The position numbers and the translations under genes are program-made. The notes under the pieces are model-generated. The model searched no databases. It had not been told where the DNA came from and worked only from the letters and a program-made list of their open reading frames with translations. From an uncultured Bacilli bacterium (lineage in GTDB: Bacteria; Bacillota_I; Bacilli_A; RF39; UBA660), in assembly GCA_947598485.1 (NCBI GenBank), contig CANQFJ010000001.1, positions 11,469 through 75,468 on the forward strand: DNA of 64,000 nucleotides, written 5' to 3'. Below are positions 29,361 through 46,225 of this stretch, piece after piece (the first letter of the stretch is position 1; the number at the start of each line of letters is the position of its first letter).

Positions 29361-30059
29361 TTATTCTTGAACATTGAAATCGCTAGCAGTATATATGTTC
29401 TCGGCATTTGGAATAAATTCATCTTCTTTACCAATACCAATTGAACCAAAGTCCTTAATACAAGTATTCCATAAAGTACTTGCTGTATATTTACCATCTT
29501 CATCTTTTGAAACCTCATATGGAACATTATTATAAACAGTAAATAAACGATTATCAATTACTTTATATTCAGCTATATTCATGTCCACTTTTTCTTCAAG
29601 TCTAAAGCAAGGAGTAGCCGTTTTCTTAACATATAAAACATCATTTTGAGACATATATTGATTAGCATAACTACTAGACATAACTTTTCTTGCTCGAACT
29701 TCAGCCGCAGGTGTCAAATTATTAGTTATCAAATCATTAATATCACTTATATCATGAATATCTTCAAGAAGATAATCTGTAACGGCATAATATACATCAT
29801 CACTACCATCAATTCTTAAAGTACCTTCACCAACTTGAATATCTCCTTCCAAGATGTATGTTATAAGGAAATTATTATAAAAAGCGTTTCTTACTTGTTC
29901 TTCAACATCCTTTTCATTATATTCAGTAGGATTTTCTTTTTCTTTAGGTTTATTATTTTTTATTACTAGATATACTACAGCTCCAGCTATTAAAGCTAAA
30001 ACACATACTATACTAATGATAATAATTATTAATTTCTTTTTATTTTTACCACTTTTCAT
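29361..30059 (-). CDS. Membrane-anchored extracytoplasmic protein, unknown function (last gene of the pilin unit)
   Basis: N-terminal KKK + TM (LIIIIISIVCVLALIAGAVVYLVI). GGAG RBS. Only 13 nt downstream of giant pilin copy 2. Confidence 0.65.
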   Translation of the reverse strand: MKSGKNKKKLIIIIISIVCVLALIAGAVVYLVIKNNKPKEKENPTEYNEKDVEEQVRNAFYNNFLITYILEGDIQVGEGTLRIDGSDDVYYAVTDYLLEDIHDISDINDLITNNLTPAAEVRARKVMSSSYANQYMSQNDVLYVKKTATPCFRLEEKVDMNIAEYKVIDNRLFTVYNNVPYEVSKDEDGKYTASTLWNTCIKDFGSIGIGKEDEFIPNAENIYTASDFNVQE

Positions 30060-30072
30060 TTATTTTTTCTCC

Positions 30073-32394
30073 TTATTTTATAACATAATAGTTAATAGTT
30101 ACACTATATTCCCAATAATCACGATATTGAGTACATGGATAATAGCATGTGCCATTGCTGTATGATCCATATGAGCAATGGCTGCACTCACTACCATTTC
30201 GATAATCGCCAGAATTACAAGTATAATCTTCATACCCTGAACACGAAGCTTGATAATTACCATCCCAATCGCAATTACCCTTACATGCCGAGTCAACAAT
30301 TGTTTCTTGTCCATCAGTACATGGCCCTGATGGATTATTACATCCCCAGAAGTTGCTTGGGTCATCTCTAGAGTATCCCGTATCGCACGAAGTATAAGGG
30401 TCGTCACCTCCCCAACGTTTCCATTTACCATTGACACACTTCCAAGGTTGACGTTCAGTTGGGCAAGATGTTATTATATATCGAGTTCCTAGATAATACG
30501 AATTTCCACAAGCATCACTAGTATAATAATTTTCGGGTGTACACAACCCGTCACTGGTAGGAGATCCACCTCTTGGACAGTAATAACCGGTAGAACATGT
30601 AAGGGAAGCAGTATATGTACTTAAATAATATGTACTACTGCATGTACCTGTATATGGTTGGGGATCATTTTGTCCACCATAGACATTAACATAAGCATAG
30701 GAGCCAGATAGACTAGCATTAATATATCCTTGATCTGTTGTATAACTAGCTATTTCAACAGGATTATCTAATTTAAATTGGTTACTAATTGATGAAGATG
30801 AATAACTAGATAAACTACCTTGATATGTTTTTTCAATAACGATATCTTTAACTGTTACATAACTATATTTCCAGTTGCCCGCGGCATCTATTACATGGAA
30901 ATAATATGTTTTGTTTTCATCTGCGGTATAGTCAAAAGTTACTTGACTATTTGTTTTAGTTATATTAGTAAATGTTGATGGTTTACTACTGCTTGTTGTA
31001 AAAGCATATCCTACTATGCCAGCTTTAGTATCTAAGGCAGTTCCTCTAAGTACAGTTGATTTTCTATATCCTGACATCGTATTTGATACATTTACAGAAT
31101 CGATAGTTTTATCGACATTTTCTACTTTATAACTTGCTTTTCCTATATTCCCTACATTATCTTTAGCATATAAATAATATTCTCCATTTTCTGTGGCACT
31201 AGTTGGGCAAGTTACATTAGTTTTACTATTTGTTCTTGTTATCGTTTTCCAACCTTTATCACTTGCTGATGGTGTTTTATTTGTTTTTGTACACATCCAA
31301 GCTACTACGCCTGATTTTTGATCTTCAACTGTTCCTGTTAAAGTTACAGATTGTGAATAGGTATTATTATCTGGTGTTCCAGTTAAAGTTACACTATCAA
31401 AACCTACATCCATATTATTTATTTGTAGTGATGCAGATCCATTTGGTGTTACTTCACTTTTATTTATGTTTCCTACAACATCCTTAACCCATACATAGAT
31501 GTAGTCGCCTTCTTTTAGAGTTTTTAAATCTTTGGTCACTTTTACTTTTTCACTTGTTTTTCCTGATGGTGTTACTTTTGTCCAAGTAGTAGGTTCTTTA
31601 GTATCATAAGTTATTTGATAGCCATATATTCCTGATTCAGCATCACTTAATTCAAATGATATATTCTTCTTAGTTGACCAGTTTTCCGGATTTTCATCAA
31701 TTAAGTTATATACTTTTGGTGGTTCTCTATCTATTTTTACACTGCCATATGCTGTATATTTATTATTTCCTACTCTTACTGTTACTTGGAATGTATCATT
31801 TACATATTTATCATCTATTACTAGTTCTTTTCCCGTTTCTACTTTATCAGGTGCTAATGGTGAAGACCAACTATAGCTGGCACTAGCTAAATCAACACTT
31901 ACTAATCCGGTTGTATCTACAGATAGAGTTACTCCTTGATTAAACCATTTATCACCTTTTAAGTCTTGTTTTTTATTACTCGTATCATTATTTAATCTAT
32001 ATTGGATTTTAATTGCTTCATCATTTAATACTGTTACATCACAAAGAGGATTTTCATCTTGTTCAAGATTTGCTTTACCATTACTATAATTTATAACTTG
32101 GCAATTAATTGATTCTTCATTTCGCGGATCATATATTTGCTTTGTTTCATCATCTGCTTCAATTAATCCTTTATCAATAAGAGTTTGCACAAACATCTTA
32201 TTTACACCAGTTTCTTCAGCATAATTTTCTGCAGCAACTTCTATCTTACTGGCTAATGATTCATATTCTCTTTCATTTACTCTACTTCTGACTGTTGATA
32301 CTGATACCATTGCTAATACTGCGATTATTCCTAGTATCACTATTACAGCGATTAGCTCCATGAGTGTGAAGCCCTTATTTTTTACTTTCTTCAT
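30073..32394 (-). CDS. Giant modular type IV pilin-like protein, copy 2 (773 aa)
   Basis: The start is trimmed from TTG 32400 to ATG 32394. MKKVKNKG|FTLMELIAVIVILGIIA is a class-III prepilin signal (Gly-1, Phe+1, Glu+5). A pseudopilin-like head is followed by Ig-like modules (DAESGIYGY, DQKSGVVAW, DTKAGIVGY) and an 18-Cys C-terminal module ending RDYWEYSVTINYYVIK. Confidence 0.8.
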   Translation of the reverse strand: MKKVKNKGFTLMELIAVIVILGIIAVLAMVSVSTVRSRVNEREYESLASKIEVAAENYAEETGVNKMFVQTLIDKGLIEADDETKQIYDPRNEESINCQVINYSNGKANLEQDENPLCDVTVLNDEAIKIQYRLNNDTSNKKQDLKGDKWFNQGVTLSVDTTGLVSVDLASASYSWSSPLAPDKVETGKELVIDDKYVNDTFQVTVRVGNNKYTAYGSVKIDREPPKVYNLIDENPENWSTKKNISFELSDAESGIYGYQITYDTKEPTTWTKVTPSGKTSEKVKVTKDLKTLKEGDYIYVWVKDVVGNINKSEVTPNGSASLQINNMDVGFDSVTLTGTPDNNTYSQSVTLTGTVEDQKSGVVAWMCTKTNKTPSASDKGWKTITRTNSKTNVTCPTSATENGEYYLYAKDNVGNIGKASYKVENVDKTIDSVNVSNTMSGYRKSTVLRGTALDTKAGIVGYAFTTSSSKPSTFTNITKTNSQVTFDYTADENKTYYFHVIDAAGNWKYSYVTVKDIVIEKTYQGSLSSYSSSSISNQFKLDNPVEIASYTTDQGYINASLSGSYAYVNVYGGQNDPQPYTGTCSSTYYLSTYTASLTCSTGYYCPRGGSPTSDGLCTPENYYTSDACGNSYYLGTRYIITSCPTERQPWKCVNGKWKRWGGDDPYTSCDTGYSRDDPSNFWGCNNPSGPCTDGQETIVDSACKGNCDWDGNYQASCSGYEDYTCNSGDYRNGSECSHCSYGSYSNGTCYYPCTQYRDYWEYSVTINYYVIK

Positions 32395-32416
32395 TTCCAA
32401 CCATCCTATTATCCAT

Positions 32417-32446
32417 ATTCTATCACATTTGTTTTTATCATGTCTA
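32417..32446 (-). promoter_or_regulatory. Promoter candidate of giant pilin copy 2
   Basis: On the minus strand: TAGACA (32446..32441), an 18-nt spacer, and TGaTAGAAT extended -10 (32425..32417). Confidence 0.45.
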
Positions 32447-32502
32447 GATAATAATTAATAATAATAGATTTTTATGAACTACTTAATGATTTTAAAAACG
32501 AT

Positions 32503-32534
32503 AAAACAGATATTTTAAGCAAATTATCTGTTTT
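32503..32534 (-). terminator. Terminator between the two giant pilin genes
   Basis: Perfect 10-bp stem aaaacagata/tatctgtttt with a 12-nt loop. On the minus strand it is followed by atcgttttta. Confidence 0.5.
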
Positions 32535-32555
32535 TAAAATTTTTTATAAGCAAGA

Positions 32556-34907
32556 TTATTTAATAACATAATAATTAATAGTTATGTTATATTCCCAATA
32601 ATCACGAAATAGAGTACATGAATAATTGCATGTGCCATTGCTGTATGAACCTCTTGAACAAGAGTAACAATCGCTATCATCTCTATAATCGCCAGATTTA
32701 CAAGCATAATCTTTGTTTCCTGAACAAGAAGCTGGATACTTCGTAAACTTACAGGTTGCATGGCATCCATATTTACCATCATTTGTACTTCCGTCTGGGC
32801 TACAAGCTCCTTCAGGACTTGTGCAATCATAATAGTCTTTAGGTTTTTCAGGTAATTTTATTCTAACATAGCCTACTTCACAAGGTGTGGCGCCATAATT
32901 ATCATCAACTTGTGTCCATGTTCCGTTGATACAAGTAAAGTGTTGATACGGTATTGGGCAAGTGGATAATTCATATTCATCGTCTAAGTAATAAGTGTGA
33001 CCACACTCATCAGTTATACGAGTTTTAGTAGGATAGCACCATCCATCACTGCCAGCGGTACCACCATCTGGACAATAATAACCTGTAGAACATGTAAGAG
33101 AAGCAGCATACGTATTTAAATAAGATGTACTACTACATGTGCCTGTATATGGTTGGGGATTATTTTGACCACCATAGACTCTGACATAAGCATATGAATC
33201 TGAATCTGATAGACTAGCACTAATATATCCTTGATCTGTTGTAGAACTAACTATTTCAACAGGATTGTCTAATTCATCTAATTCAATTTGATCTTCTATA
33301 TTCGAAGATGAATAGCTAAATAAATTACCAGGATATGTTCTTTCTTCAACTATGTTTTCGACTTTTACGGAATCATGATTCCAATTGCCGGCTGCATCTA
33401 TTACATGAAAATAATAAGTTATGTTTTCATCTGCTTTATCATAGTAAAATGTTACTTCATTTTTTGTTTTAGTTATATTAGTAAATGTGGATGGTTTACT
33501 ACTGCTTGTTGTAAAAGCATATCCTACTATACCAGCTTTGGTATCTAGGGCTGTGCCACTTAATATAGTTGATTCTCTGTATCCAGACTTGGTATCTGAT
33601 ATTTTTACAGAGTCGATAGTTTTATCGACATTTTCTACTTTATAGCTGGCTTTTCCTATATTCTCTACATTATCTTTAGCATATAAATAATATTCTCCAT
33701 TTTCTGCGGCACTAGTTGGGCAAGTTACATTAGTTTTACTATTTGTTCTTGTTATCGTTTTCCAACCTTTATCACTTGCTGATGGTGTTTTATTTGTTTT
33801 TGTACACATCCAAGCTACTACGCCTGATTTTTGATCTTCAACTGTTCCTGTTAAAGTTACAGATTGTGAATAGGTATTATTATCTGGTGTTCCAGTTAAA
33901 GTTACACTATCAAAACCTACATCCATATTATTTATTTGTAGTGATGCAGATCCATTTGGTGTTACTTCACTTTTATTTATGTTTCCTACAACATCCTTAA
34001 CCCATACATAGATGTAGTCGCCTTCTTTTAGAGTTTTTAAATCTTTGGTCACTTTTACTTTTTCACTTGTTTTTCCTGAAGGATCAACCTTTGTCCAAGT
34101 AGTAGGTTCTTTAGTATCATAAGTTATTTGATAGCCATATATTCCTGATTCCGCATCACTTAATTCAAATGATAAATTTTTCTTAGTTGACCAGTTTTCA
34201 GGATTTTCATCAATTAAGTTATATACCTTTGGAGGCTCTCTATCTATTTTTACATTTCCATATGCTGTATATTTATTATTGCCTACCTTTACAGTTACTT
34301 GGAATATATCATTTACATATTTATCATCTATTACTAGTTCTTTTCCTGTCTCGACTTTATCTGGAGCTACAGGTGAAGACCAACTATAGCTGGCACTAGC
34401 TAAATCAACACTTACTAATCCGGTTGTATCTACGGATAGAGTTACTCCTTGGTTAAACCATTTATCACCTTTTAAATCTTGCTTTTTATTACTTGTATCA
34501 TTATTTAATCTATATTGGATTTTAATAGCTTCATCATTTAGAACTGTTATATCGCAAAGAGGATTTTCAGCTTGTTCAAGAGTTGCTTTACCATTACTAT
34601 AATTTATAACTTGGCAATTAATTGATTCTTCATTTCGCGGATCATATATTTGTTTTGTTTCATCATCGGCTTCAATTAATCCTTTATCAATAAGAGTTTG
34701 CACAAACATCTTATTTACGCCAGTTTCTTCAGCATAATTTTCAGCAGCAACTTCTATCTTACTGGCTAATGATTCGTATTCTCTTTCATTTACTCTACTT
34801 CTGACTGTTGATACTGATACCATTGCCAATACCGCGATTATTCCTAGTATCACTATTACAGCAATTAGCTCCATGAGCGTGAAGCCCTTATTTTTTACTT
34901 TCTTCAT
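32556..34907 (-). CDS. Giant modular type IV pilin-like protein, copy 1 (783 aa)
   Basis: Same prepilin N-terminus MKKVKNKG|FTLMELIAVIVILGIIA and the same domain order. The C-terminal ~340 aa diverge from copy 2, but all 18 Cys and the terminal RDYWEY.ITINYYVIK are kept. Confidence 0.8.
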   Translation of the reverse strand: MKKVKNKGFTLMELIAVIVILGIIAVLAMVSVSTVRSRVNEREYESLASKIEVAAENYAEETGVNKMFVQTLIDKGLIEADDETKQIYDPRNEESINCQVINYSNGKATLEQAENPLCDITVLNDEAIKIQYRLNNDTSNKKQDLKGDKWFNQGVTLSVDTTGLVSVDLASASYSWSSPVAPDKVETGKELVIDDKYVNDIFQVTVKVGNNKYTAYGNVKIDREPPKVYNLIDENPENWSTKKNLSFELSDAESGIYGYQITYDTKEPTTWTKVDPSGKTSEKVKVTKDLKTLKEGDYIYVWVKDVVGNINKSEVTPNGSASLQINNMDVGFDSVTLTGTPDNNTYSQSVTLTGTVEDQKSGVVAWMCTKTNKTPSASDKGWKTITRTNSKTNVTCPTSAAENGEYYLYAKDNVENIGKASYKVENVDKTIDSVKISDTKSGYRESTILSGTALDTKAGIVGYAFTTSSSKPSTFTNITKTKNEVTFYYDKADENITYYFHVIDAAGNWNHDSVKVENIVEERTYPGNLFSYSSSNIEDQIELDELDNPVEIVSSTTDQGYISASLSDSDSYAYVRVYGGQNNPQPYTGTCSSTSYLNTYAASLTCSTGYYCPDGGTAGSDGWCYPTKTRITDECGHTYYLDDEYELSTCPIPYQHFTCINGTWTQVDDNYGATPCEVGYVRIKLPEKPKDYYDCTSPEGACSPDGSTNDGKYGCHATCKFTKYPASCSGNKDYACKSGDYRDDSDCYSCSRGSYSNGTCNYSCTLFRDYWEYNITINYYVIK

Positions 34908-34944: not shown

Positions 34945-34974
34945 ATTGTATTATATATATATATATATAGTCAA
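34945..34974 (-). promoter_or_regulatory. Promoter candidate of giant pilin copy 1 with a dinucleotide-repeat spacer
   Basis: On the minus strand: TTGACT (34974..34969), an 18-nt spacer made almost entirely of (TA)9, and TACAAT (34950..34945). An overlapping consensus TATAAT (34955..34950) sits at only 13 nt. Confidence 0.45.
34952..34969. repeat. (TA)9 microsatellite
   Basis: Nine uninterrupted TA units, counted directly. Confidence 0.95.
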
Positions 34975-35025: not shown

Positions 35026-35988
35026 TTAGTAATTATATTCCGTTGTATCTTCAACTGGTAAAGCATGATCTTCATCAATAGGAATGGTAGCTATTGTATT
35101 ACCATCAACGTCCGTAACTATAACTTTACCATCTTCTTCACTAAATGATATGTTTTCGGAATCACATGGTTCATCATAATATATATAGTTAAAGTCTTTG
35201 CTATAAATTTTAATCATAAAGCTAGTACTAATTAAAGCATTACAATTTTCTAATAAATTGACTACCTTAAAGTCATCATCAATAATTGTATTTCCTTGAT
35301 AATCGACAACTATATAGTTGCCTAAATTAGTTTTGGCATAAATAAAATCTTTATCATAAGTATATATAGCGTCCGCGATTTTAGCTGTTAATTCATTTTC
35401 TGTTTCATCAATTAAACAATAATATCCATCTTTATTTACAATAATCTTATCTATACTTATTTTATCATCCACTAAATCATTACCCGTTAAACCCATATAA
35501 TCATAGGTAGGATTAATAACATAAGAGCCTGTAAAAGGATCGAATAAACCATATTTAAATGTTTCATCTTGAACAATAAGTAAGTTTCCTTGAATGCCAA
35601 TACCATAATCTTTCACCGAATTTAAGTTATAAATTATTTTATCGTTTTTTACCCAATAGTACGATATTTGTTCACCATCTTGAATAAAAGCAAATTCATC
35701 ATTGTAAATAGGTAGCATGGCTGCGTCTATACTTTTATATTCATTATCAGCATCATCAACCGTCGTAGTTACCCGGTCACATAAATTTTTTTGCTTGCAT
35801 TCATAAATGCCTAATAAAACATCATCAGCACTATAAAAGTATAATTTATTATTATTTTTATAAAGATGTTTAGGGTTATCACGATCAAGAATACTACTAT
35901 TATGTTTATGAACCCCATATATCGAAGCAGGAACAAAAAATAGTAAAAGAATGATTAAGATTGGCAATACAAAATCATTCTTTTTCAC
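35026..35988 (-). CDS. Membrane-anchored WG-repeat-like protein (320 aa)
   Basis: N-terminal TM (FVLPILIILLLFFVPASIYGV). FKYGLFDPFTGSYVINPTYDYMG resembles the KWG/WG beta-repeat. It shares the module LYFYSADDVLLGIYECKQKNLC with the upstream 724-aa protein. Confidence 0.55.
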   Translation of the reverse strand: MKKNDFVLPILIILLLFFVPASIYGVHKHNSSILDRDNPKHLYKNNNKLYFYSADDVLLGIYECKQKNLCDRVTTTVDDADNEYKSIDAAMLPIYNDEFAFIQDGEQISYYWVKNDKIIYNLNSVKDYGIGIQGNLLIVQDETFKYGLFDPFTGSYVINPTYDYMGLTGNDLVDDKISIDKIIVNKDGYYCLIDETENELTAKIADAIYTYDKDFIYAKTNLGNYIVVDYQGNTIIDDDFKVVNLLENCNALISTSFMIKIYSKDFNYIYYDEPCDSENISFSEEDGKVIVTDVDGNTIATIPIDEDHALPVEDTTEYNY

Positions 35989-38149
35989 TAGTATCTTCTC
36001 CTTTATCTTTATTATCGTCTGGCTTTTCTTCTTCGTCTGTTGCTGGTTCAGTTATTTTTTTACCTTGACGATCATATTTATAAACCATTTCTGTCTTATC
36101 ACTTAACTTAATCGTAATAACGTAGCCGTCTTTATTATCAACACTAATATCAGTATATTTAATAGAACTTAAATCAATTTCCTCTTGAAGAATACCTTTA
36201 GCATCTTGATCATAAGAATATAAGTTTAGCTTTTTATCTTTAACACCAATTAAAAGATCTGACTCAAGTTTAGCAAAATCTAAATCTACACTAACTATTT
36301 TGCCATTTTCATTATAAACAGTATATTTCTTATCTTTATTTACAATAAAATTACCATATGAATAATCCACTATTGTATATTTACTACGAATAATTTCATT
36401 TTCTGGTGATAATTTTGTAAGGTCAAACAAGCGATAGTATTCAGAGTCTTTAGCAAGTAAATAATCATTTTTAAATATAGATATACTACTATAATCAAAA
36501 TTTAATTTTTTAGATGCAGTTGTAGCATCAATTTTAATGACACCATATTTACCACTGGTATTTTGAGCATAAACAAGTTCATCTAAACTAGATATATGAG
36601 ACACATCAGCAGTTCTATATAAAACATCTACTTTTTGATATGTACCTAATACTTTAGCATTTTCAATATCTGTAATAACTATTCTTTGATTAGTATCACT
36701 AGAACTAGTATCTCTAATAAAGACATACTTATTATTTATAATTGGAATATATCCCATAGTATCAGAATCATTAACAATATTTTGCGCTTGAGCTACAAAA
36801 CAATTATCAAGAGTCTTCGTAGAACTTGTAACATTATTTTCATTAGTACATGTATAACTACCTATTAAATCAGTTTTCTCTTGATCAGCGTAAAAGAATA
36901 AAGAACCATCAAAATAATTTACATAAGGAAGTTGTTTGCTTATCCTTCCTTCATTAACGTTAATTTCTCTATCTTTGCCATCAATCTCGATTGTAATTTT
37001 AGCATCATCTATCGTTAATGAATATGCACTCTTCGTTTCTTTATAATTATTCTTATCATCAAATATGTATGCTGGGCGATATTCTTTGGCTTTTAATTTA
37101 TAGCCCGTTTCTGTTAACTTATATAATGTATCATCATAGGCATAAATTCGGCCATCTTTAATAGCAAAAACATAGTTATCTTTAAAATCAAGATATTCTA
37201 TACCATCATCTTGAATTAAAGCCGTTCCTTTATAATCATATAGCGCATATTTATCACTAGTATATAAGGAAATATACTTATCACTAAATTGCTTTATATC
37301 ACCGTTTAATTTAGCCGTTAAGACTTCATTAGCACTATTTATTAAGAATGATTTATCATCTTCTTTAGCAACAAAAGCTTTAGAACTATTCATAATGCCA
37401 AGATATTCATAAGAAGGTTTTATTAATTCTTCATAAGAACTATCTTTAAAAGATAGAATACCATAGCCATTGGCTCTTTCTTTAACAACAACATAATTCT
37501 CATCTATGTTACCAGTTTTAATAAGTTCATAATCACCATAACTAGCTTCTTCTTTCATATCATATAAACTTATTTTATCTTCATCAAAGACAAAGACATA
37601 TCTATTAGAAATAACTTTTGATGTTCTTTGAATTTCTTCATTTTTACTATTAAGATACTCCGCTACATCAAAATCATCTTCATTAGATAATGGAGCTACA
37701 TAACATCTATCAACGTCTTTATTTTTACACTCATATTTTCCTATTTCATTATCACTTTCATCAAGAAATATTAAAAAACCATTTTGATATTTATAATTGT
37801 CTTTTTCAATGACAATTGTTTCGGCAGGATCAAGAGGTTTTTCTTCATCCTTTTTAAGAACTAAGAAGTATACCAATAAAGCAATTATTACTAAAATGAC
37901 TATAACAGGTATAACAATAATCGCAATTTTTGTTCCCTTAGGTAAATCCGACCATTTTTCTTTAAAGCTTTTTTTATTATATTTATTACTTCTTTTAGGC
38001 ATAGGTTTTACTTTAAGTTCAGTATCAGAAATTTCTTCTACCTCAACACTATCCATTTTCGCGGTTTCTTCATCAGTACTATTAAGTTCAATGATTGTAT
38101 TTTGATTTTTACTTTCTTCGATATCATTTAAATCGTCTATATTTGGCAT
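35975..38149 (-). CDS. Membrane-anchored WG-repeat-like protein (724 aa) with acidic cytoplasmic N-terminus
   Basis: TM IAIIVIPVIVILVIIALLVYFLVL. Repeats such as NGYGILSFKDSSYEELIKPSYEYLG and GKYGVIKID. Two copies of the F..(D/A)......GxYxC...C module. K/D/E-rich C-terminus. Confidence 0.55.
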   Translation of the reverse strand: MPNIDDLNDIEESKNQNTIIELNSTDEETAKMDSVEVEEISDTELKVKPMPKRSNKYNKKSFKEKWSDLPKGTKIAIIVIPVIVILVIIALLVYFLVLKKDEEKPLDPAETIVIEKDNYKYQNGFLIFLDESDNEIGKYECKNKDVDRCYVAPLSNEDDFDVAEYLNSKNEEIQRTSKVISNRYVFVFDEDKISLYDMKEEASYGDYELIKTGNIDENYVVVKERANGYGILSFKDSSYEELIKPSYEYLGIMNSSKAFVAKEDDKSFLINSANEVLTAKLNGDIKQFSDKYISLYTSDKYALYDYKGTALIQDDGIEYLDFKDNYVFAIKDGRIYAYDDTLYKLTETGYKLKAKEYRPAYIFDDKNNYKETKSAYSLTIDDAKITIEIDGKDREINVNEGRISKQLPYVNYFDGSLFFYADQEKTDLIGSYTCTNENNVTSSTKTLDNCFVAQAQNIVNDSDTMGYIPIINNKYVFIRDTSSSDTNQRIVITDIENAKVLGTYQKVDVLYRTADVSHISSLDELVYAQNTSGKYGVIKIDATTASKKLNFDYSSISIFKNDYLLAKDSEYYRLFDLTKLSPENEIIRSKYTIVDYSYGNFIVNKDKKYTVYNENGKIVSVDLDFAKLESDLLIGVKDKKLNLYSYDQDAKGILQEEIDLSSIKYTDISVDNKDGYVITIKLSDKTEMVYKYDRQGKKITEPATDEEEKPDDNKDKGEDTSEKE

Positions 38150-38255: not shown

Positions 38256-39002
38256 TTATTTTCGCGTTGAATCAATTTCCTCGGTTAAATGCTTTAAATA
38301 AGCCTTAAAGCAAAGATTAACACCTTTAGCTTCTGCTAAAAAACGACAAAAATAATGATCATCATAATACACATCACAGGCTATATCTGGGTCAAGTTCA
38401 TCATCTTTGTGCCAAGCTTCACACCATGGCATTGCTGGTTGTAACCATACGACTTTTTTGCCAGTTTGTTTAGCTAACTCTTCCTGCGTAATAGCCTGAG
38501 GATTATCTGATATTAAAACAATATGATCAATATAGTACATTCCTTCAAGCTCATTAACGTATGAAACAGTTTTAGTCAAAAGTGATCTTGGATCATAATG
38601 GCACTCTCTTTCCCATGCTCCAGCTCCTTTTGAACGATCGATATCAAGATACCATCTGTTAAGTAAAGTTTTACCTATAAGGCCAAATGGATTAGTTTGG
38701 TAGTGAGTTACTCCACTTGCATCGTTTTGACCCATGACTTCAATCATGCTAGCTTCGCTAAGTGCCGCAGAAATATGGTTTTCCCATGTGTAATCGCCAG
38801 CATAACGATCAACTTCAGGATAGCTAATATCCGTTATTATCGAAAGTATCGTTTTAGCATTGCCAGATTTTTGGCCAAGTGTTTTGACATTATTAATAAA
38901 GTCTAAAAATGTTTGATAAAAATCATGGGCATCTTTTTCAGTATAAGTGTCCCATAATGTTCTCAAATCAACATAAATTAATATAGCTTTTTCCTTATCC
39001 AT
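38256..39002 (-). CDS. Hypothetical cytoplasmic protein (248 aa), Trp/Tyr/Cys/His-rich, unknown family
   Basis: AGAGGA RBS. No TM or signal. No motif I recognise. It is the last gene before the terminator of the tad-like unit. Confidence 0.65.
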   Translation of the reverse strand: MDKEKAILIYVDLRTLWDTYTEKDAHDFYQTFLDFINNVKTLGQKSGNAKTILSIITDISYPEVDRYAGDYTWENHISAALSEASMIEVMGQNDASGVTHYQTNPFGLIGKTLLNRWYLDIDRSKGAGAWERECHYDPRSLLTKTVSYVNELEGMYYIDHIVLISDNPQAITQEELAKQTGKKVVWLQPAMPWCEAWHKDDELDPDIACDVYYDDHYFCRFLAEAKGVNLCFKAYLKHLTEEIDSTRK

Positions 39003-39063: not shown

Positions 39064-39765
39064 TTAGCTTATAAAATATTTTAAAAGAATTGGTCCCAAT
39101 ATTAATAACATAATAAGAGGAATAAAAAATAAGACAGATATTATAGATATTTGGGTAGGTATTTTATTAATCTTACCTTTAATATTTAAAATTCGCTTAT
39201 CCGTTAAATACTCAATTTGATTATTAAGAGTATCAATAACATTTGTACCATAGGTATATGATTCAATTAAATTTAAAAGAATATTATTAACGTTTTTAGA
39301 AGGTATTCTTTCTTTCGCAGCATTTAATGCTTCCGTTAAAGATTTACCTATTTCTACTTCTTTTAAAACCTCTTTAAATTCACTAGCCATTTCACTATCT
39401 ATGGCATTACAGGTATTTTCTAAACAGATTTTTAGATTTTTCTCGGTTTGTAAGCTTAAAACCAGAATTTCAAAAAAGAAGATAGCATCTTTTTCGATAA
39501 TATTAGCCCGTTTTTTTATTCTAGTATCAAGAAGTAAATAATCATATAAAAAATATGAAATAATAGTTAATAAAGGAGCAAGGAAATAACCATAATCAAA
39601 CATAAATAATGATATTAAAAATACAAGTACTAATAAAATAAATTTACAAATAAGATATTTATTAATATCAATTTTATTATTAATACCTAGAAGATTAATC
39701 TTGGTTTGCGTTTTATTAATTATATTTTTTGAATAAAGTATTTTAACAATGTAATCTATTTTCAT
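39064..39765 (-). CDS. tadC: Tad pilus platform protein, TadC-like (T2SS-F family)
   Basis: Polytopic, with a cytoplasmic helical segment ..LQTEKNLKICLENTCNAIDSEMASEFKEVLKEVEIGKSLTEALNAAKERIP.. typical of GspF/TadC. There is a 4-nt overlap with the tadB-like gene. Confidence 0.65.
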   Translation of the reverse strand: MKIDYIVKILYSKNIINKTQTKINLLGINNKIDINKYLICKFILLVLVFLISLFMFDYGYFLAPLLTIISYFLYDYLLLDTRIKKRANIIEKDAIFFFEILVLSLQTEKNLKICLENTCNAIDSEMASEFKEVLKEVEIGKSLTEALNAAKERIPSKNVNNILLNLIESYTYGTNVIDTLNNQIEYLTDKRILNIKGKINKIPTQISIISVLFFIPLIMLLILGPILLKYFIS

Positions 39766-40772
39766 ACTTCATCCACCTTCATTATCTTACGAATAGCTAT
39801 AATATAAACAACATATAAGGTAATCATAATTCCTAATACAACAAGCCCAACGATAGAGTTAAAAAACGGAGCAAAATAGTTATGATCAAAGATCATAATA
39901 AATAAAATAAAAATAAAAGGAATAAAGCATAGGAAATTTTTTAAAAGCCTACTTGTTGAAGTTAAAGATTTAAGCTCATCTCTTATTTTTAAACGATTAT
40001 AAAATCTTTTCTCAATCATGTTAAAAACAGATACAACACTACCTCCGGTTTTATTTAAAAGAGATAGTGATGATGTAATGTATTTGGCTTCATCTACTTT
40101 TACTCTTTCATAAAATCTAGCAAAGATAATATTAACATCAAGACCATAGTCTAAATCTTTAGCAATAATTTCAAATTCTTCTTTAATAGGATTAGGAAGT
40201 TCATTTTTTATTATTTGCACAGCTTGATAGATATTTTTACCACTTTTAAAAGCCCCATTCATTATAATAATAGCCTGAAGTAGTTGCTCTTCAATTATTT
40301 TCTTTTTACTTTGATATAAAATAATAAGAATAATGTCCATAAAATAAAAACTAATAATATTTACTAAAATAAAATGCCATATATTAAAGCTTAAAGTTCT
40401 TGTTCCTAATACTAAGAAGTACAATAAGTTAATAAACATTGTGATTACGAATTTACCAGCGACAAAGTCCATACCCGCAAAAGTATTCTTTTGGATATAT
40501 AATAGATATTTATCAAATCTTTGGCAATACTTTGTAAATAAATGATGTTTCTTAAAAAATGATGATATTTTAGCTACTAATTTTAAATATATTCCCGTTA
40601 AAATATCAATAATGGATACTTGATCATCATTTTTGACATTAATAACGTATGGTTTAATTCTTTTATTTAACTTAATAGATAAATAATATTTTATAATAAG
40701 AAAAGCCAATATTAAAAAAATACTGATACATATAAGATCAAATAAAAAATTTCTTATTATAATATCTTTCAT
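39762..40772 (-). CDS. tadB: Tad pilus platform protein, TadB-like (T2SS-F family)
   Basis: Polytopic. ..LLQAIIIMNGAFKSGKNIYQAVQIIKNELPNPIKEEFEIIAKDLDYGLDVNIIFARFYERV.. matches the GspF/TadB helical domain pattern. It lies directly downstream of the CpaF-type ATPase. Confidence 0.65.
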   Translation of the reverse strand: MKDIIIRNFLFDLICISIFLILAFLIIKYYLSIKLNKRIKPYVINVKNDDQVSIIDILTGIYLKLVAKISSFFKKHHLFTKYCQRFDKYLLYIQKNTFAGMDFVAGKFVITMFINLLYFLVLGTRTLSFNIWHFILVNIISFYFMDIILIILYQSKKKIIEEQLLQAIIIMNGAFKSGKNIYQAVQIIKNELPNPIKEEFEIIAKDLDYGLDVNIIFARFYERVKVDEAKYITSSLSLLNKTGGSVVSVFNMIEKRFYNRLKIRDELKSLTSTSRLLKNFLCFIPFIFILFIMIFDHNYFAPFFNSIVGLVVLGIMITLYVVYIIAIRKIMKVDEV

Positions 40773-40789
40773 TATTTATCCTTTCTTAA

Positions 40790-42112
40790 TTATTTAAAAT
40801 ACTCTTCTATATCTTTATAACCATAAGAAACTATCTTATCTAAACATTTAGGCCTAATATGGCTTTTTTCAAAAGTACCATCAACTTCTTTATTTTCCGT
40901 TAAGCCTTTTTGCACAAAGCTATAAATATGGTTAAGTTTTATTTCATCATTTTCAAAGCCATTAACTTCGGCTATATCCGTTATTTTTCTTTTTCCATCA
41001 GCAAGACGATCAACGGTAACAACTAAATTTATGGCTCCCTCAATATATTCCCGAATTGCTTTAACAGGAAGTTCCATGCTAGCCATTAAAACCATTGTTT
41101 CAAGACGATGCAAAGCATCATGCCCTCCATTAGCGTGCAAAGTGGTTAAGCTTCCTTCATGGCCGGTATTCATTGCTTGAAGCATATCAAAAGCTTCCTT
41201 ACCTCTTACTTCACCTACAATTATACGATCCGGCCGCATTCTTAGAGAGTTACGTACTAAATCTCTAATTGTGATTTCCCCACTTTTTTCATAGTTAGTA
41301 GTTCTTGTTTCCAAACTTATAACGTGAGGTTGAAGTAGCTTTAACTCTGCCGCATCCTCAATTGTTATAATTCTTTCATTGGAAGAAATAAAGGTACTTA
41401 AAACATTTAACAAAGTAGTTTTACCTGAACCGGTTCCGCCACAGACAATAATATTTAGTTTAGCTTTAACAGCCGCATCGAGAAAGTGCGCCATCTCACT
41501 TGTTAATGTTCCCAGCCTTAAAAGTTCATCAACATTATTAAGTTGTTTTTTAAATTTACGAATAGTTATAACAGGTCCTTTTGTTGAAAGGGGCGGAATA
41601 ATGGCATTAATACGCGCTCCATTTTCAAGCCTTGAATCCACCATAGGATTATTAACATCTATTGTCCTACCCATAGGTTCAACGATTCTTTGAATAGTTC
41701 GCATAATATGTGCATCATTAATAAAAGATACTGTTTCGTCTTTAATAAGATTACCATCGATTTCAATATATATCTCTTTAGGAGAATTAACCATTATTTC
41801 GGTAATATTATTATCATCAAGAAGCTCTGTTAAAGGGCCAAAGCCTTTTATTTCGTTTTCAATCAAATTAAATAAATGACTTCTTTCAATGGCCGTTAAG
41901 TCATATCCTTCAATCGCCTTATTGATTTGTTCATTAATAAAGACTGATGTATCAATATTTTCGGGAATCTTGTTATCAATAAGATTCTCTACTATTTTGG
42001 TTCTTAAACTATCAAGTAAATCTTTATCTTTAAATATTTCATAATCACTAATTGTAGCGGGAGCTATATTTTTATTAGAATAATCAAATTCATTTAAAAG
42101 GCTACTTTTCAT
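40790..42112 (-). CDS. cpaF: Tad/Flp-type secretion ATPase (CpaF/TadA family)
   Basis: Walker A VCGGTGSGKTTLLN, RIITIEDAAEL, Walker B/Asp box RPDRIIVGEVRGKEAFDMLQAMNTGHEGSLTTLHAN. Confidence 0.9.
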   Translation of the reverse strand: MKSSLLNEFDYSNKNIAPATISDYEIFKDKDLLDSLRTKIVENLIDNKIPENIDTSVFINEQINKAIEGYDLTAIERSHLFNLIENEIKGFGPLTELLDDNNITEIMVNSPKEIYIEIDGNLIKDETVSFINDAHIMRTIQRIVEPMGRTIDVNNPMVDSRLENGARINAIIPPLSTKGPVITIRKFKKQLNNVDELLRLGTLTSEMAHFLDAAVKAKLNIIVCGGTGSGKTTLLNVLSTFISSNERIITIEDAAELKLLQPHVISLETRTTNYEKSGEITIRDLVRNSLRMRPDRIIVGEVRGKEAFDMLQAMNTGHEGSLTTLHANGGHDALHRLETMVLMASMELPVKAIREYIEGAINLVVTVDRLADGKRKITDIAEVNGFENDEIKLNHIYSFVQKGLTENKEVDGTFEKSHIRPKCLDKIVSYGYKDIEEYFK

Positions 42113-42863
42113 CTTGTACCTCCTCTAGATCATCTATCAAAGTTTTAAACGCTTTATTAATGTTCGGATATGCCTTTGGCATTTTAGGATTTAGAGTTAG
42201 TATTTGACCATCATAAATATATTTATCAATAGTAGCAAGATAAAAAGATGAATCTATATAATAGTCAATATTAGCTTTAATAGCATTTTTAATATCAAAT
42301 AAACTATAATATTTTCTATTAGGGTTTATGGAATTATTTAGCATAACTTTATAATTAGTTTTACCCGCATCTTTAAAAACACTAACAAGATTAGCAGTAT
42401 TTTTAATATCAATTAAATCATTAGACATAACAAGTAAACATAAATCACAATTATCTAAAATAGTTAAATTAAATTCATTTAAGCTATGGTTCATATCAAT
42501 AATTAGATAATCATAACTATAAATTGCTCTTTCAATGATTAAAGGAATAATATTTGTATCAAGTTTACTACCTACTCTTGGATCTTTAGCAGATGCTAAT
42601 ATATCAATATTTTCGTTATATTTAGTAACATAATTTTCAATTTTATCAAAAACATGGCCAATATAATCTTCTGCACAGTTAGCGATTGTTTTAAGAGGAT
42701 TCTTTCGAAGATAAGTAGCAATAGCTCCGGAAGTATTATCTAAATCAATTAATAAAACTTTTTTTTGTAAACATGACAAAACTCCGGCAATATTGATTGC
42801 GGTTGTTGTTTTTCCGACACCACCCTTAGTAGAAAAAATACATAAACTTTTTCCTTTTTTCAT
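42102..42863 (-). CDS. MinD/ParA-type ATPase, TadZ/CpaE-like (no receiver domain)
   Basis: Deviant Walker A STKGGVGKTTTAINIA. Position immediately upstream of cpaF with an 11-nt overlap. Confidence 0.7.
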   Translation of the reverse strand: MKKGKSLCIFSTKGGVGKTTTAINIAGVLSCLQKKVLLIDLDNTSGAIATYLRKNPLKTIANCAEDYIGHVFDKIENYVTKYNENIDILASAKDPRVGSKLDTNIIPLIIERAIYSYDYLIIDMNHSLNEFNLTILDNCDLCLLVMSNDLIDIKNTANLVSVFKDAGKTNYKVMLNNSINPNRKYYSLFDIKNAIKANIDYYIDSSFYLATIDKYIYDGQILTLNPKMPKAYPNINKAFKTLIDDLEEVQDEK

Positions 42864-42868
42864 CTACA

Positions 42869-43219
42869 TCAACTAACCCTTTTTATTATTATTTTATCAT
42901 CTACTTTAGTCCCTACTAAAGTTAGATTTAAATAACTATCATTTATAAAACTATCAGCTTTTACTTTAATATTAATTTCTAAATCATCATTTCTTTTTAT
43001 ATCAATAAAATTATAATTAATATTATTCTTTTTTAATAATTCTTTAATATTATCATCACTGCATTTATCATAGCAAGAAGATATTACAGTTTTTAAATTA
43101 CTAATAATTTTCTTCTTTTGATAATTAACATTTATACCTTGGATTGTTCCCATGAATAGTAATAAAATAAGAGGAACAAGTAAGATAACAAAGACTAAAG
43201 CTTGCCCTTTATTATTCAT
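42869..43219 (-). CDS. TadE/TadF-like pseudopilin (116 aa), lacks Glu+5
   Basis: MNNKG|QALVFVILLVPLILLLF. It has the same first 8 residues as the upstream paralog and overlaps it by 8 nt. Confidence 0.55.
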   Translation of the reverse strand: MNNKGQALVFVILLVPLILLLFMGTIQGINVNYQKKKIISNLKTVISSCYDKCSDDNIKELLKKNNINYNFIDIKRNDDLEINIKVKADSFINDSYLNLTLVGTKVDDKIIIKRVS

Positions 43220-43517
43220 ATATCACTCTTTTTACTTCCACAGGATAAGGGTTATCCATAACTATATTTAAAAATGGTGATAATAATTCAATTTTTTTTC
43301 TTAAGTAATAACTTATCTCCCCATCGGTCGTTACTTCATTAAATGTGATATCTGAAGGTAGTTTATAATTAGCGTTATCAACTACTTCTTCCATCATGTC
43401 CTCTAAATCGCTTCTTGTCTTTATTATTTGCGAATAATCAAATATAGCCAGAATTATTAAAATAAGCACTGGGATTATAATAATAAACTCGACTAAAGCT
43501 TGCCCCTTATTATTCAT
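43212..43517 (-). CDS. TadE-like pseudopilin (101 aa)
   Basis: MNNKG|QALVEFIIIIPVLILIILAIFDY carries a TadE-type N-terminus with a G|xxxxEF processing motif. Confidence 0.65.
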   Translation of the reverse strand: MNNKGQALVEFIIIIPVLILIILAIFDYSQIIKTRSDLEDMMEEVVDNANYKLPSDITFNEVTTDGEISYYLRKKIELLSPFLNIVMDNPYPVEVKRVIYE

Positions 43518-45744: not shown

Positions 45745-46225
45745 ATTTAAGTCCTATATTTATTCCCACGAAGCCACCAACTAAAGAAACTAAAATACTA
45801 AAAACAAGGGTTTTATGATTATAAAAAAATTTAAGATAGTTGCCAACATTAGGAATCACCTTAATCATTTTACCATAAACATTTATATCATTAACTAAAT
45901 GGCCATCGGTAAATTTATTATTATCACCTCGGGTTACATAAGACCCATTTTCGATATTAATAATACGATGAGTTACAGTCATACCATTTTCATCAAAACT
46001 TATTACATCACCTATCTTATAAGAATCATGTTTTTTAAGAATAACTAAGTCTCCTTTTTGAATGGTTGGAAGCATACTTGTCCCTGTATTAACAAAGCCT
46101 GTATATCCTAGAAAATATGGTATATTACCAGAGCTTTTTTGCACATAAAAAGATATTGCAATAATAAATAAAAGTGCGATAATGACACTTAGAATGGATA
46201 AAACTATTCTTACAAAATATTTCAT
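45722..46225 (-). CDS. Signal peptidase I, archaeal/SipW type
   Basis: N-terminal TM, catalytic region NTGTSMLPTIQKGDLVILKK, VTHRI, TRGDNN, and a C-terminal TM. Its 3' end overlaps the priA start by 23 nt. Confidence 0.8.
   Translation of the reverse strand: MKYFVRIVLSILSVIIALLFIIAISFYVQKSSGNIPYFLGYTGFVNTGTSMLPTIQKGDLVILKKHDSYKIGDVISFDENGMTVTHRIINIENGSYVTRGDNNKFTDGHLVNDINVYGKMIKVIPNVGNYLKFFYNHKTLVFSILVSLVGGFVGINIGLKYVRKNNN

What the first reader, a model, noticed from the sequence alone, without database searches (positions are those of the whole stretch)
30073..34907. Tandem giant-pilin paralogs: homogenised N-terminal two-thirds and an 18-Cys hypervariable C-terminal module
The two genes are direct repeats with a 2513-nt offset. 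The first ~440 codons differ by only scattered substitutions. They contain a perfectly identical 372-nt block (31195..31566 = 33708..34079) flanked by regions with synonymous differences, a mosaic pattern expected from gene conversion.

The last ~340 codons diverge strongly, with indels. I nevertheless count 18 Cys at equivalent positions in each C-terminal ~200 residues, and the extreme end RDYWEY..TINYYVIK is conserved. A scaffold with conserved cysteines and variable loops, placed at the distal end of a pilin, is what would be expected of a receptor-binding or antigenically variable tip.

Recombination between the direct repeats could also delete one copy or create chimeras.
Basis: seen in the sequence. 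Interest (0 to 1): 0.65.

Follow-up and report, generated by a model that had tools for sequence, protein, structure and literature searches.

The report
Tandem modular pilins with variable heads
An uncultured rabbit-gut bacterium carries two side-by-side genes for very large pilus-type surface proteins whose front two-thirds are kept nearly identical by gene conversion, while their cysteine-rich far ends differ, which probably gives the cell alternative binding heads on one common stalk.

Summary
Two minus-strand genes (A 30073-32394, 773 aa; B 32556-34907, 783 aa) are tandem paralogs. Their first 434 codons differ at 53 of 1302 nt and contain an exact 372-nt block (permutation P<5e-6). Their last ~340 codons are divergent (dS ~0.7-1.0, dN/dS ~0.37). 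All 18 C-terminal Cys align.

Each protein has a type IV prepilin signal and alpha-1 helix, a predicted stalk of Ig-like domains, and a C-terminal Cys-rich head. The head is confidently modelled (pLDDT 90.5) but has no Pfam, PDB or BFVD match. The genes follow a Tad-like pilus operon and precede a conserved membrane-anchored companion gene.

Gene conversion is well supported. A and B are 98% alike where A and a related allele (P0001) are 87% alike, a chimeric A/B unitig occurs in the source metagenome, and a mosaic allele (L085) exists. A distant relative independently shows the same pattern, with an 827-nt identical block.

"Hypervariable" is overstated. The heads look like old alleles under purifying selection that are shuffled by recombination. 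A tip-adhesin role is inferred, not shown.

This is a new variant of the known class of modular type IV pilins. Interest is moderate.

The parts
30073..32394 (-). Copy A: 773-aa modular type IV pilin-like protein. It occupies the ancestral position, followed by the companion gene.
   Evidence: ORF. N_methyl PF07963 and TIGR02532 hits on residues 7-30. Its upstream promoter-like motif matches that of the single-copy orthologs L081 and L083.
32556..34907 (-). Copy B: 783-aa paralog inserted between the upstream gene g320 and copy A.
   Evidence: ORF. N_methyl hit. 82% identical to A overall.
31093..32394 (-). Homogenised part of A (codons 1-434): prepilin signal, alpha-1 helix, pilin module and the first Ig-like domains.
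   Evidence: 53 differences in 1302 nt against B; dS 0.164, dN 0.012.
33606..34907 (-). Homogenised part of B (codons 1-434).
   Evidence: Same comparison.
31195..31566 (-). Exact 372-nt block in A, a recent gene-conversion tract. It lies in the second and third Ig-like domains.
   Evidence: Exact identity with no extension. Permutation P<5e-6. Unitig depth about twice the flanks.
33708..34079 (-). The same exact 372-nt block in B.
30670..32028 (-). Predicted stalk of A (residues ~123-575): about five beta-sandwich, Ig-like domains. Three are homologous ~100-aa repeats with a D-x-x-SG-[IV]-x-x-[YW] motif.
   Evidence: AlphaFold2 blocks mostly pLDDT 78-95. Foldseek hits to tandem Ig arrays of adhesins such as GhpA and SiiE, E down to 1e-8.
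30073..30669 (-). Cys-rich head of A (residues ~576-773): 18 Cys and a conserved C-terminal strand YWEYxVTINYYVIK.
   Evidence: Model pLDDT 90.5. No PDB or BFVD match. Profile search finds 49 clusters at 50% identity, almost all with the module at the C-terminus.
32556..33170 (-). Cys-rich head of B: 52% identical to A's head, with 18 Cys in the same columns.
32494..32544 (-). Terminator-like hairpin followed by a U-run, just after B's stop codon.
   Evidence: RNA fold gives dG -10.2 kcal/mol and z -2.9. Sequence. The simple scan did not call it because the stem is AT-rich.
32417..32446 (-). Promoter-like site for A: TAGACA, 18 nt, extended -10 TGnTAGAAT.
   Evidence: The motif is conserved upstream of the orthologs in L081 and L083.
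34945..34974 (-). Promoter-like site for B: TTGACT, 18 nt, TACAAT. The spacer is almost entirely a (TA)9 tract at 34952-34969.
   Evidence: It is the only such tract in 64 kb, and 0 of 100 shuffles contained one. One run's contig carries an extra TA.
29361..30059 (-). Companion gene g232: an N-terminally membrane-anchored 232-aa protein that follows the giant pilin in all relatives examined.
   Evidence: Synteny in L081-L084. Weak homology to the companions in L086, 27% identity, E 2e-4.
35026..38149 (-). g320 and g724: paralogous membrane-anchored repeat proteins upstream of the pilins, of unknown function.
   Evidence: BLASTP of g320 against both halves of g724, E 7e-10 and 4e-5. g320-like genes lie upstream of the pilin in L081, L082 and L084.
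39064..43517 (-). Tad-like pilus machinery: two TadE-like pseudopilins, a ParA/MinD-like TadZ, a TadA-family ATPase, and TadB- and TadC-like T2SSF proteins.
   Evidence: Pfam and NCBIfam hits.

Best explanation
What the two genes are: A and B are old tandem duplicates of one gene for a modular ('giant') type IV pilin. The predicted parts, in order, are:
- a prepilin leader (MKKVKNKG|FTLMEL...) and hydrophobic alpha-1 helix, which would insert the protein into a type IV filament;
- a small pilin module;
- a rigid stalk of about five Ig-like domains;
- a C-terminal, probably disulfide-bonded, head of a fold not seen before.

Likely function (inferred): both are low-abundance, tip-displayed adhesins of the pilus built by the adjacent Tad-like operon. 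Each presents a different head and so a different binding specificity.

Evolution:
- Shown: non-reciprocal recombination (gene conversion) between the direct repeats repeatedly overwrites the proximal 1.3 kb. This keeps the filament-fitting part and proximal stalk of both copies alike.
- Shown: the conversion stops at a domain boundary near codon 434.
- Inferred: the distal stalk and head stay distinct because selection keeps them so.
- Shown (mosaic alleles) and inferred (cause): in the population, head segments are exchanged between alleles by homologous recombination, so divergent old heads sit on near-identical bodies.

Expression (inferred): each copy has its own promoter-like site. B's promoter has a (TA)9 spacer that varies in length in the metagenome, so B may switch on and off by slipped-strand mispairing.
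For: Pilin identity:
- N_methyl/TIGR02532 hits.
- The profile matches only the alpha-1 region of solved type IV pilins.
- The leader ends in Gly, with Phe at +1 and Glu at +5.

Architecture:
- AlphaFold2 stalk, mostly pLDDT 78-95, with Foldseek hits to Ig-array adhesins.
- Head model pLDDT 90.5.
- All 30 aligned family heads have an even Cys count (14, 16 or 18), and 12 Cys columns are invariant.
- The two extra Cys of A and B lie inside one insertion that is absent from P0001.

Context:
- The Tad-like genes lie upstream on the same strand.
- The order g320, pilin, g232, polA is conserved in L081-L084, which carry a single pilin, so the duplication is specific to this lineage.

Gene conversion:
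- The 372-nt run has P<5e-6.
- dS is 0.16 in the proximal part against ~1.0 in the distal part.
- In residues 331-430, A and B are 98% identical but A and P0001 only 87%. In residues 431-583 the order reverses: A-P0001 88-92%, A-B 76%.
- An in-register A/B chimeric unitig is present at depth 9-16 in three runs.

Head alleles:
- A-B 52%, A-P0001 56% and B-P0001 52% identity, on bodies that are >94% identical.
- L085 matches A at ~100% over about 560 nt of the head but only 63-90% on both sides.

Recurrence: in L086 and L087, two independent assemblies of a relative ~31% identical, paralogs p1 and p2 share an 827-nt identical block. Their distal 320 codons have dS 1.06 and dN 0.46.

(TA)9 tract.
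Against: - No prepilin peptidase and no obvious Flp-type major pilin lie in the 64-kb window.
- The prepilin motif GFTLxE is of the type IVa/Com kind, whereas the neighbouring machinery is Tad-like.
- In the distant relatives L086 and L088, no pilus machinery lies within 10 kb of the giant pilins.
- No transcript data could be found.
- dN/dS is below 1 throughout the head, so diversifying selection is not demonstrated.
- Unitig depths do not fit a simple two-copy single-strain genome.
- P0001 may be a further paralog rather than an ortholog.
Confidence: 0.55

Rival explanations
1. Membrane-anchored surface adhesins rather than pilus subunits. The prepilin-like N-terminus would serve only as a cleaved membrane anchor, and the Ig-like stalk would carry the head through the Gram-positive wall without any filament being formed.
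For: The giant pilin arrays of L086 and L088 have no pilus genes within 10 kb. Two family heads (P0053, P0077) sit on ordinary or SipW-type signal peptides instead of a prepilin signal. The window has no prepilin peptidase. A stalk of about five Ig-like domains is long.
Against: The window and its closest relatives keep the gene at the 3' end of a Tad-like operon and its associated genes. The full class III motif (Gly-1, Phe+1, Glu+5) is conserved across the family, and Glu5 is needed only for filament assembly (established knowledge of type IV pilins).
Confidence: 0.25
2. A polymorphic recognition or antagonism module. The variable head and the small membrane protein encoded downstream would form a cognate pair, such as kin recognition or toxin and immunity, delivered on a pilus or stalk.
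For: The layout is a conserved body, an abrupt switch to a divergent C-terminus, and a small downstream gene. In L086 the companions c1 and c2 have diverged as much as the heads (dS 1.04 against 1.06; dN 0.40 against 0.46). Arrays and gene relics resemble orphan-module arrays.
Against: All heads share one Cys framework and one fold, unlike the unrelated toxin domains of polymorphic toxins. No toxin or immunity family was hit. Copy B has no companion of its own. Equal divergence of head and companion is what an old duplication outside the conversion tract would give anyway.
Confidence: 0.1
3. Assembly artefact. Under this reading A and B are alleles of one gene from two co-resident strains that the metagenome assembler wrongly joined in tandem, and the identical block is a collapsed consensus.
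For: The sample holds several haplotypes and the unitig depths are uneven. A P0001-type N-terminus is present at depth 39 in the same sample.
Against: A 231-nt unitig that exactly spans B's 3' end, the 155-nt spacer and A's start is present in three runs. The two genes have different upstream regions and different neighbours. The same tandem pattern occurs in two independent assemblies of a distant relative.
Confidence: 0.05
4. No gene conversion. Under this reading the N-terminal similarity simply reflects stronger purifying selection on the pilin and stalk after an old duplication.
For: dN/dS is lowest in the N-terminal part, at 0.08.
Against: Synonymous divergence is six-fold lower in the N-terminal part than in the distal part (0.16 against ~1.0), and it is zero over 372 nt. 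A and B are more alike than A and P0001 only inside this part.
Confidence: 0.03

Closest known systems
Modular minor type IV pilins of Streptococcus sanguinis (PilB with a vWA module, PilC with a lectin module; Raynaud et al. 2021, PMC8179133; PMC9934059)
   Same: [quoted passage not shown] They occur in a monoderm bacterium, are proposed to be tip-exposed adhesins, and add binding functions to a filament.
   Different: Here about five Ig-like domains form a long stalk. The terminal module is a Cys-rich domain with no Pfam or PDB relative. The neighbouring machinery is Tad-like rather than type IVa-like. The gene is tandemly duplicated with concerted evolution. A conserved membrane-anchored companion gene follows it.
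Large tip-located minor pilins of type IVb pili: CofB of enterotoxigenic E. coli and TcpB of Vibrio cholerae (as discussed in PMC8179133; otherwise my own knowledge)
   Same: A pilin module is followed by beta-rich extra domains that sit at the filament tip and mediate binding.
   Different: No sequence or fold match was found here. Those proteins are single-copy, not Cys-rich, and belong to diderm type IVb systems.
Neisseria pilE/pilS antigenic variation (my own knowledge)
   Same: RecA-type non-reciprocal recombination between pilin gene copies. The variable part is C-terminal and framed by cysteines.
   Different: In Neisseria, silent promoterless partial cassettes donate variable sequence to one expression locus. 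Here both copies are complete genes with their own start and promoter-like sites. The detected conversion tracts homogenise the conserved part rather than diversify the variable part.
Phase-variable fimbrial promoter of Haemophilus influenzae hifA/hifB, with (TA)n between the -35 and -10 elements (my own knowledge)
   Same: A TA dinucleotide repeat fills the spacer of a sigma-70-type promoter in front of a fimbrial gene. Changes in unit number would alter spacer length.
   Different: Only a sequence resemblance plus one +TA variant in a metagenome contig. No expression data. The tract is absent from copy A and from all relatives examined.
Polymorphic toxin and recognition systems with a conserved body and variable C-terminus: CdiA-CT/CdiI, Rhs, and Myxococcus TraA (my own knowledge)
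   Same: A sharp switch from a conserved to a divergent C-terminal region, a small gene immediately downstream, and tandem arrays with relic fragments.
   Different: The heads are homologous variants of one scaffold. No toxin or immunity domains were found. The companion is one conserved family. One copy lacks a companion.

Membership tests
Type IV pilin (class III signal peptide protein) | A short basic leader ending in Gly, then Phe/Met at +1 and Glu at +5, then a ~20-residue hydrophobic alpha-1N segment. | tested here: met
   MKKVKNKG|FTLMELIAVIVILGIIAVLAMV in both copies. PF07963 26.8 bits (cut-off 21.2) and TIGR02532 28.3 bits (cut-off 16.3). The profile aligns to alpha-1 of solved pilins, E 1.5e-5.
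Type IV pilin (class III signal peptide protein) | Cleavage and N-methylation by a prepilin peptidase, and polymerisation into a filament. | not testable with these tools
   No A24-family peptidase among the window ORFs scanned. No proteomic or imaging data.
Modular pilin (sense of Raynaud et al. 2021) | An N-terminal pilin module fused to one or more additional structural or functional modules that are not specific to pilus biology. | tested here: met
   The AlphaFold2 model shows Ig-like domains over residues ~123-575 and a separate C-terminal head. Foldseek matches the stalk to Ig arrays of unrelated adhesins.
Modular pilin (sense of Raynaud et al. 2021) | The extra module has a direct role in a pilus function such as adhesion. 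| not testable with these tools
   No ligand, expression or localisation data. The head has no characterised relative.
Tad/Flp (type IVc) pilus locus | A TadA/CpaF-type ATPase, TadB- and TadC-type platform proteins, a TadZ/CpaE ParA-like protein and TadE/F pseudopilins. | tested here: met
   TIGR03819 TadA family 318 bits (below its 373-bit cut-off but the best hit). T2SSF hits on two proteins, a ParA/MinD-like protein, and TadE PF07811 37 bits.
Tad/Flp (type IVc) pilus locus | The pilin is a short Flp-type protein with a G/XXXXEY processing motif. | tested here: not met
   The giant pilins carry a GFTLxE motif of the type IVa/Com kind and are 773 and 783 aa long. No Flp-like ORF was recognised in 38-47 kb.
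Cassette-based pilin antigenic variation (Neisseria pilE/pilS type) | Silent, promoterless, 5'-truncated donor copies and a single expression locus. | tested here: not met
   Both copies are full length, each with a start codon, a ribosome-binding site and a promoter-like site.
Cassette-based pilin antigenic variation (Neisseria pilE/pilS type) | Non-reciprocal transfer of variable-region sequence between copies. | tested here: inconclusive
   The within-genome conversion tracts lie in the conserved part. Mosaic head alleles do exist in the population (L085) and so does a chimeric A/B unitig, but donor and recipient cannot be identified.
Polymorphic toxin / immunity pair | A C-terminal toxin domain, with unrelated folds among alleles, plus a cognate immunity gene downstream. 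| tested here: not met
   All heads share 12 invariant Cys columns and one profile. No toxin or immunity family hits. Copy B has no downstream companion.
Slipped-strand phase-variable promoter | A simple-sequence repeat within the -35/-10 spacer whose unit number varies within a population. | tested here: inconclusive
   (TA)9 fills the 18-nt spacer of B's promoter-like site and is unique in the window. One of three runs of the same sample gives a contig with one extra TA. These are contigs, not reads, and promoter activity is untested.

The most novel reading that the evidence does not exclude
The most novel reading is that this is an undescribed family of pilus- or stalk-borne recognition devices in uncultured gut Bacilli. 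A new disulfide-rich head fold would exist as many old alleles that are shuffled between strains and multiplied in tandem arrays. The companion membrane protein would be its cognate partner. Together they would set strain-specific cell-cell or cell-host recognition, with on/off control by a (TA)n promoter.
Probability: 0.15. Interest if true: 0.8.

Novelty: new variant of a known kind. Interest (0 to 1): 0.55.

Why it matters
Modular pilins are known to be widespread, but few have been studied, and none with this architecture has been described in the literature I could search.

The locus provides several things:
- A clean natural example of how a bacterium keeps the filament-fitting part of two adhesin genes identical by gene conversion while preserving different heads. 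The pattern evolved twice in the family.
- A confidently predicted, Cys-paired head domain with no solved or viral structural relative, in an anaerobic gut Firmicute where extracellular disulfides are unusual.
- Evidence that head alleles are old and are recombined among strains sharing one gut. This is the signature expected of surface molecules under frequency-dependent selection from hosts, phages or competitors.

It also offers testable targets for learning how uncultured gut Bacilli attach to their substrates.

Tried and rejected
- The genome-contig scan with the family alignment found only distant relatives (<=30% identity) and neither the source genome nor P0001's genome.
- P0001 could not be located on any contig, so its DNA, neighbours and copy number are unknown.
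- A word-indexed search with the head alignment returned only the fragment P0048. The exhaustive representative search was the informative one.
- Foldseek of the full-length model gave only generic Ig arrays. Foldseek of the head against the PDB (best E 0.18, TM <=0.18) and against BFVD (one E 1.4e-4 hit with TM 0.23/0.06 and rmsd 23 A) gave nothing usable.
- Model coordinates are not exposed, so disulfide pairing and solvent exposure could not be computed.
- No RNA-seq run holds the locus.
- The idea that X4's strain has a single copy, from the joint 32384->35022, was dropped. X4 also covers the inter-copy spacer, and its region upstream of B simply differs.
- The signal peptidase near the arrays was considered as a link. 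In L086 it is the housekeeping rplS-lepB pair, so the co-occurrence is probably chance.
- Positive selection was rejected as a demonstrated feature, because no 50-codon window has dN/dS above 0.56.

Full report
**Observation**

The window has 28.7% G+C. Two long minus-strand ORFs lie at the reported coordinates: A at 30073..32400 and B at 32556..34907. A's likely start is the ATG at 32394, which gives 773 aa; B is 783 aa. The two genes are direct repeats, offset by 2513 nt in the 5' two-thirds and by 2483-2510 nt further on because of indels.

The block 31195-31566 is exactly identical to 33708-34079 and is bounded by a mismatch on each side. In the 434 shared N-terminal codons there are 53 differences in 1302 nt (40.5 synonymous, 12.5 non-synonymous; dS 0.164, dN 0.012). 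The next longest identical run is 70 nt. None of 200,000 random placements of 53 differences gave a run of 372 nt, whether over all sites or over third positions only.

Beyond codon ~436 the divergence rises. Codons 437-590 have dS 0.45 and dN 0.14. The last ~190 codons have dS ~1.0 and dN 0.36. All 22 Cys of each protein align, 18 of them in the last ~190 residues, and the tail RDYWEY..TINYYVIK is shared.

**Is the tandem arrangement real?**

The stretch is held by runs from a rabbit-gut metagenome. Independent unitigs from three runs of one sample reproduce four features at 100% identity:
- B's specific head;
- A's head joined to the downstream gene;
- B's start joined to the upstream gene;
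- a 231-nt unitig spanning B's 3' end, the 155-nt spacer and A's start.

The identical block appears as a single unitig at about twice the flank depth (54 against 26-30). This is as expected if both copies really share it.

**What the proteins are**

Pfam and NCBIfam recognise only the prepilin N-terminal methylation motif. The leader is MKKVKNKG, followed by FTLMEL and a hydrophobic helix. A profile of the family aligns only to the alpha-1 helix of solved type IV pilins.

An AlphaFold2 model of A, built from a 7-sequence alignment, is poor for the first 122 residues. It is confident for a run of beta-sandwich domains over ~123-575. Foldseek matches these to tandem Ig-like arrays of large adhesins such as GhpA and SiiE. 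Three of the domains are homologous ~100-residue repeats with a D-x-x-SG motif.

An exhaustive profile search with the last ~200 residues found 49 clusters at 50% identity. Almost all carry this module at the very C-terminus of 650-950-aa pilin-like proteins. With a 30-sequence alignment, the segment 515-773 is modelled at mean pLDDT 90.5. It has no significant match in the PDB (best E 0.18, TM <=0.18) and no usable match among predicted viral structures.

All 30 aligned heads have an even number of Cys (14, 16 or 18), and 12 Cys columns are invariant. The two Cys that A and B have beyond P0001 lie in one insertion. Gain and loss in pairs argues for disulfide bonds rather than free thiols or four-Cys metal sites.

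**Context**

Upstream on the same strand lie, in order:
- two TadE-like pseudopilins;
- a ParA/MinD-like protein;
- a TadA-family ATPase;
- two T2SSF platform proteins;
- a 248-aa protein of unknown function;
- two paralogous membrane-anchored repeat proteins, g724 and g320.

Then come B, A, a membrane-anchored 232-aa protein (g232) and polA. No prepilin peptidase, Flp-type pilin or thiol-disulfide oxidoreductase is in the window.

Only six full-length homologs exist among 5.8 billion proteins. Four of them could be placed on contigs. All four show a g232-like gene after a single pilin; a g320-like gene precedes the pilin on three of them (L081, L082, L084), and polA follows on L081. In L081 the g232-like gene is itself duplicated. 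The pilin duplication is therefore specific to this lineage.

In L081 the first 187 residues of PolA are 88% identical to the window's, while the pilin is 50%, g232 53% and g320 42% identical. The whole surface module evolves fast.

Copy A keeps a promoter-like motif (TAGACA ... TGTGATAGAAT) that is also found upstream of the single-copy orthologs in L081 and L083. A therefore sits at the ancestral position, and B was inserted between g320 and that promoter. After B's stop there is a terminator-like hairpin (dG -10.2 kcal/mol, z -2.9).

**Gene conversion**

Four observations beyond the run-length test support it.
- First, synonymous divergence is six-fold lower in the proximal 1.3 kb than in the distal part.
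- Second, P0001 is a 758-aa protein from another NCBI contig, and its N-terminal haplotype is visible in the same sample (recoding A25V26 to S25T26, depth 39 in run X3). In residues 331-430, A and B are 98% identical but A and P0001 only 87%. In residues 431-583 the order reverses, with A-P0001 at 88-92% and A-B at 76%. This incongruence is what conversion between paralogs produces. The caveat is that P0001 may itself be a paralog.
- Third, an in-register chimeric unitig joins A-type sequence at 30854 to B-type sequence at 33365, at depth 9-16 in all three runs.
- Fourth, the pattern recurs independently. In a relative only ~31% identical, two assemblies from different samples (L086, L087) carry an array of three giant pilins. 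Each is followed by a companion gene, and a 126-aa relic of a pilin N-terminus lies between them. Paralogs p1 and p2 share an 827-nt identical block. Their distal 320 codons have dS 1.06 and dN 0.46, and their companions have dS 1.04 and dN 0.40.

**The heads**

A, B and P0001 heads are mutually 52-56% identical. That is hardly more than A's head against P0003's (45%), although P0003's pilin module is only 68% identical to A's. For A and P0001, identity drops from ~90% to 56% within a few residues.

A low-coverage ENA contig (L085) is ~100% identical to A over about 560 nt of the head core, but only 63-87% identical in the 3' tail and 77-90% in the 5' flank. It is followed by different genes.

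These are mosaic alleles. Divergent old head segments are being moved between genes by recombination. dN/dS in the head is ~0.37 and never exceeds 0.56 in any 50-codon window, with dS saturated. The data therefore show long-lived, constrained alleles, not demonstrable positive selection. 'Variable among strains' is supported; 'hypervariable' is not.

**Mechanism proposed**

The best reading is that A and B are modular minor pilins that present two different heads on a common stalk.
- Shown: conversion keeps the filament-fitting part of both copies uniform.
- Inferred: selection or sequence divergence keeps the heads apart.
- Inferred from adjacency only: the proteins are assembled by the neighbouring Tad-like system and sit at the pilus tip.

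This last point is weakened in two ways. The prepilin motif is of the type IVa/Com kind. The distant arrays in L086 and L088 have no pilus genes within 10 kb. A membrane-anchored, filament-independent display is therefore a serious rival. A cognate head-companion recognition pair is a less likely but more novel one.

**Regulation lead**

B's promoter-like site (TTGACT, 18 nt, TACAAT) has a spacer made of (TA)9. This is the only such tract in 64 kb, and none appeared in 100 shuffles. It is absent upstream of A and of all relatives examined. One of three runs of the same sample yields a contig with one extra TA. The layout resembles known slipped-strand phase-variable fimbrial promoters (my own knowledge) but is untested.

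**Unresolved**

Unitig depths do not fit one two-copy genome. The inter-copy junction is at 47-65, the flanks at 26-30, B's head at ~15 and A-like N-terminal sequence at 46. Either further array-bearing strains share the junction, or the true array has more copies than were assembled. Only long reads can tell.

**Comparison with known systems, and novelty**

The closest known class is the modular type IV pilins defined by S. sanguinis PilB and PilC. That work reports more than 1,200 such proteins in 264 architectures and notes that many modules lack signatures (PMC8179133). The features that define a type IV pilin and a modular pilin are met here. The functional criteria could not be tested.

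The locus is not a Neisseria-type cassette system, because both copies are complete and the conversion tracts lie in the conserved part. It is not a polymorphic toxin either, because the heads share one scaffold.

I found no paper describing this family. I rate it a new variant of a known kind, with moderate interest (0.55).

Noticed in passing
window 34945-34974 (minus strand), tract 34952-34969: A (TA)9 tract forms the spacer of the promoter-like site in front of copy B. It is unique in the 64-kb window. One run's contig has one extra TA. It may be a slipped-strand phase-variation switch.
   Followed up: partly
window 32359-32589 and the whole 30073-34907 stretch, runs X1-X3: The inter-copy junction unitig is at about twice the flank depth and three to four times the depth of B's head. 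A P0001-type N-terminal haplotype (A25V26 recoded to S25T26) is present at depth 39 in X3. There may be extra tandem copies, or co-resident strains that share the junction.
   Followed up: partly
L086 10001-19093 (and the identical layout in L087): A distant relative has an array of three giant pilins, each with a companion gene. A 126-aa ORF between them is a relic of the third pilin's N-terminal region. Paralogs p1 and p2 share an 827-nt identical block.
   Followed up: yes
L081 2715-4252: In this single-pilin relative the companion (g232-like) gene is tandemly duplicated instead. The two copies are 44% identical.
   Followed up: partly
L085 1-2443: A mosaic A-like head allele, with a frameshift in a contig of coverage 2.5, is followed by SpoU-methylase and PedC-like (thiol-disulfide oxidoreductase family) genes rather than by g232 and polA. 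This is either a different genomic context or a chimeric contig.
   Followed up: partly
proteins P0053 and P0077: The same Cys-rich head occurs on proteins that start with an ordinary or SipW-type signal-anchor sequence (...GATFAYF) instead of a prepilin signal. The head is therefore a transferable module.
   Followed up: no
window 45722-46225 (minus strand): An archaeal/SipW-type signal peptidase I (TIGR02228, 81 bits) lies just upstream of priA and the Tad-like operon. Two small unannotated ORFs (46303-46861) precede it.
   Followed up: no
window 35026-38149 (minus strand): g320 and g724 are paralogous membrane-anchored repeat proteins with recurring ...KYG[LV]... motifs and no Pfam or NCBIfam hit. 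g320-like genes lie upstream of the pilin in three of the four close relatives placed on contigs (L081, L082, L084).
   Followed up: partly
window 38256-39002 (minus strand): A 248-aa protein without a membrane segment or any family hit lies between the TadC-like gene and g724.
   Followed up: no
window 1237-5097 (plus strand): A 1286-aa ORF with no significant family hit, possibly another large surface protein.
   Followed up: no
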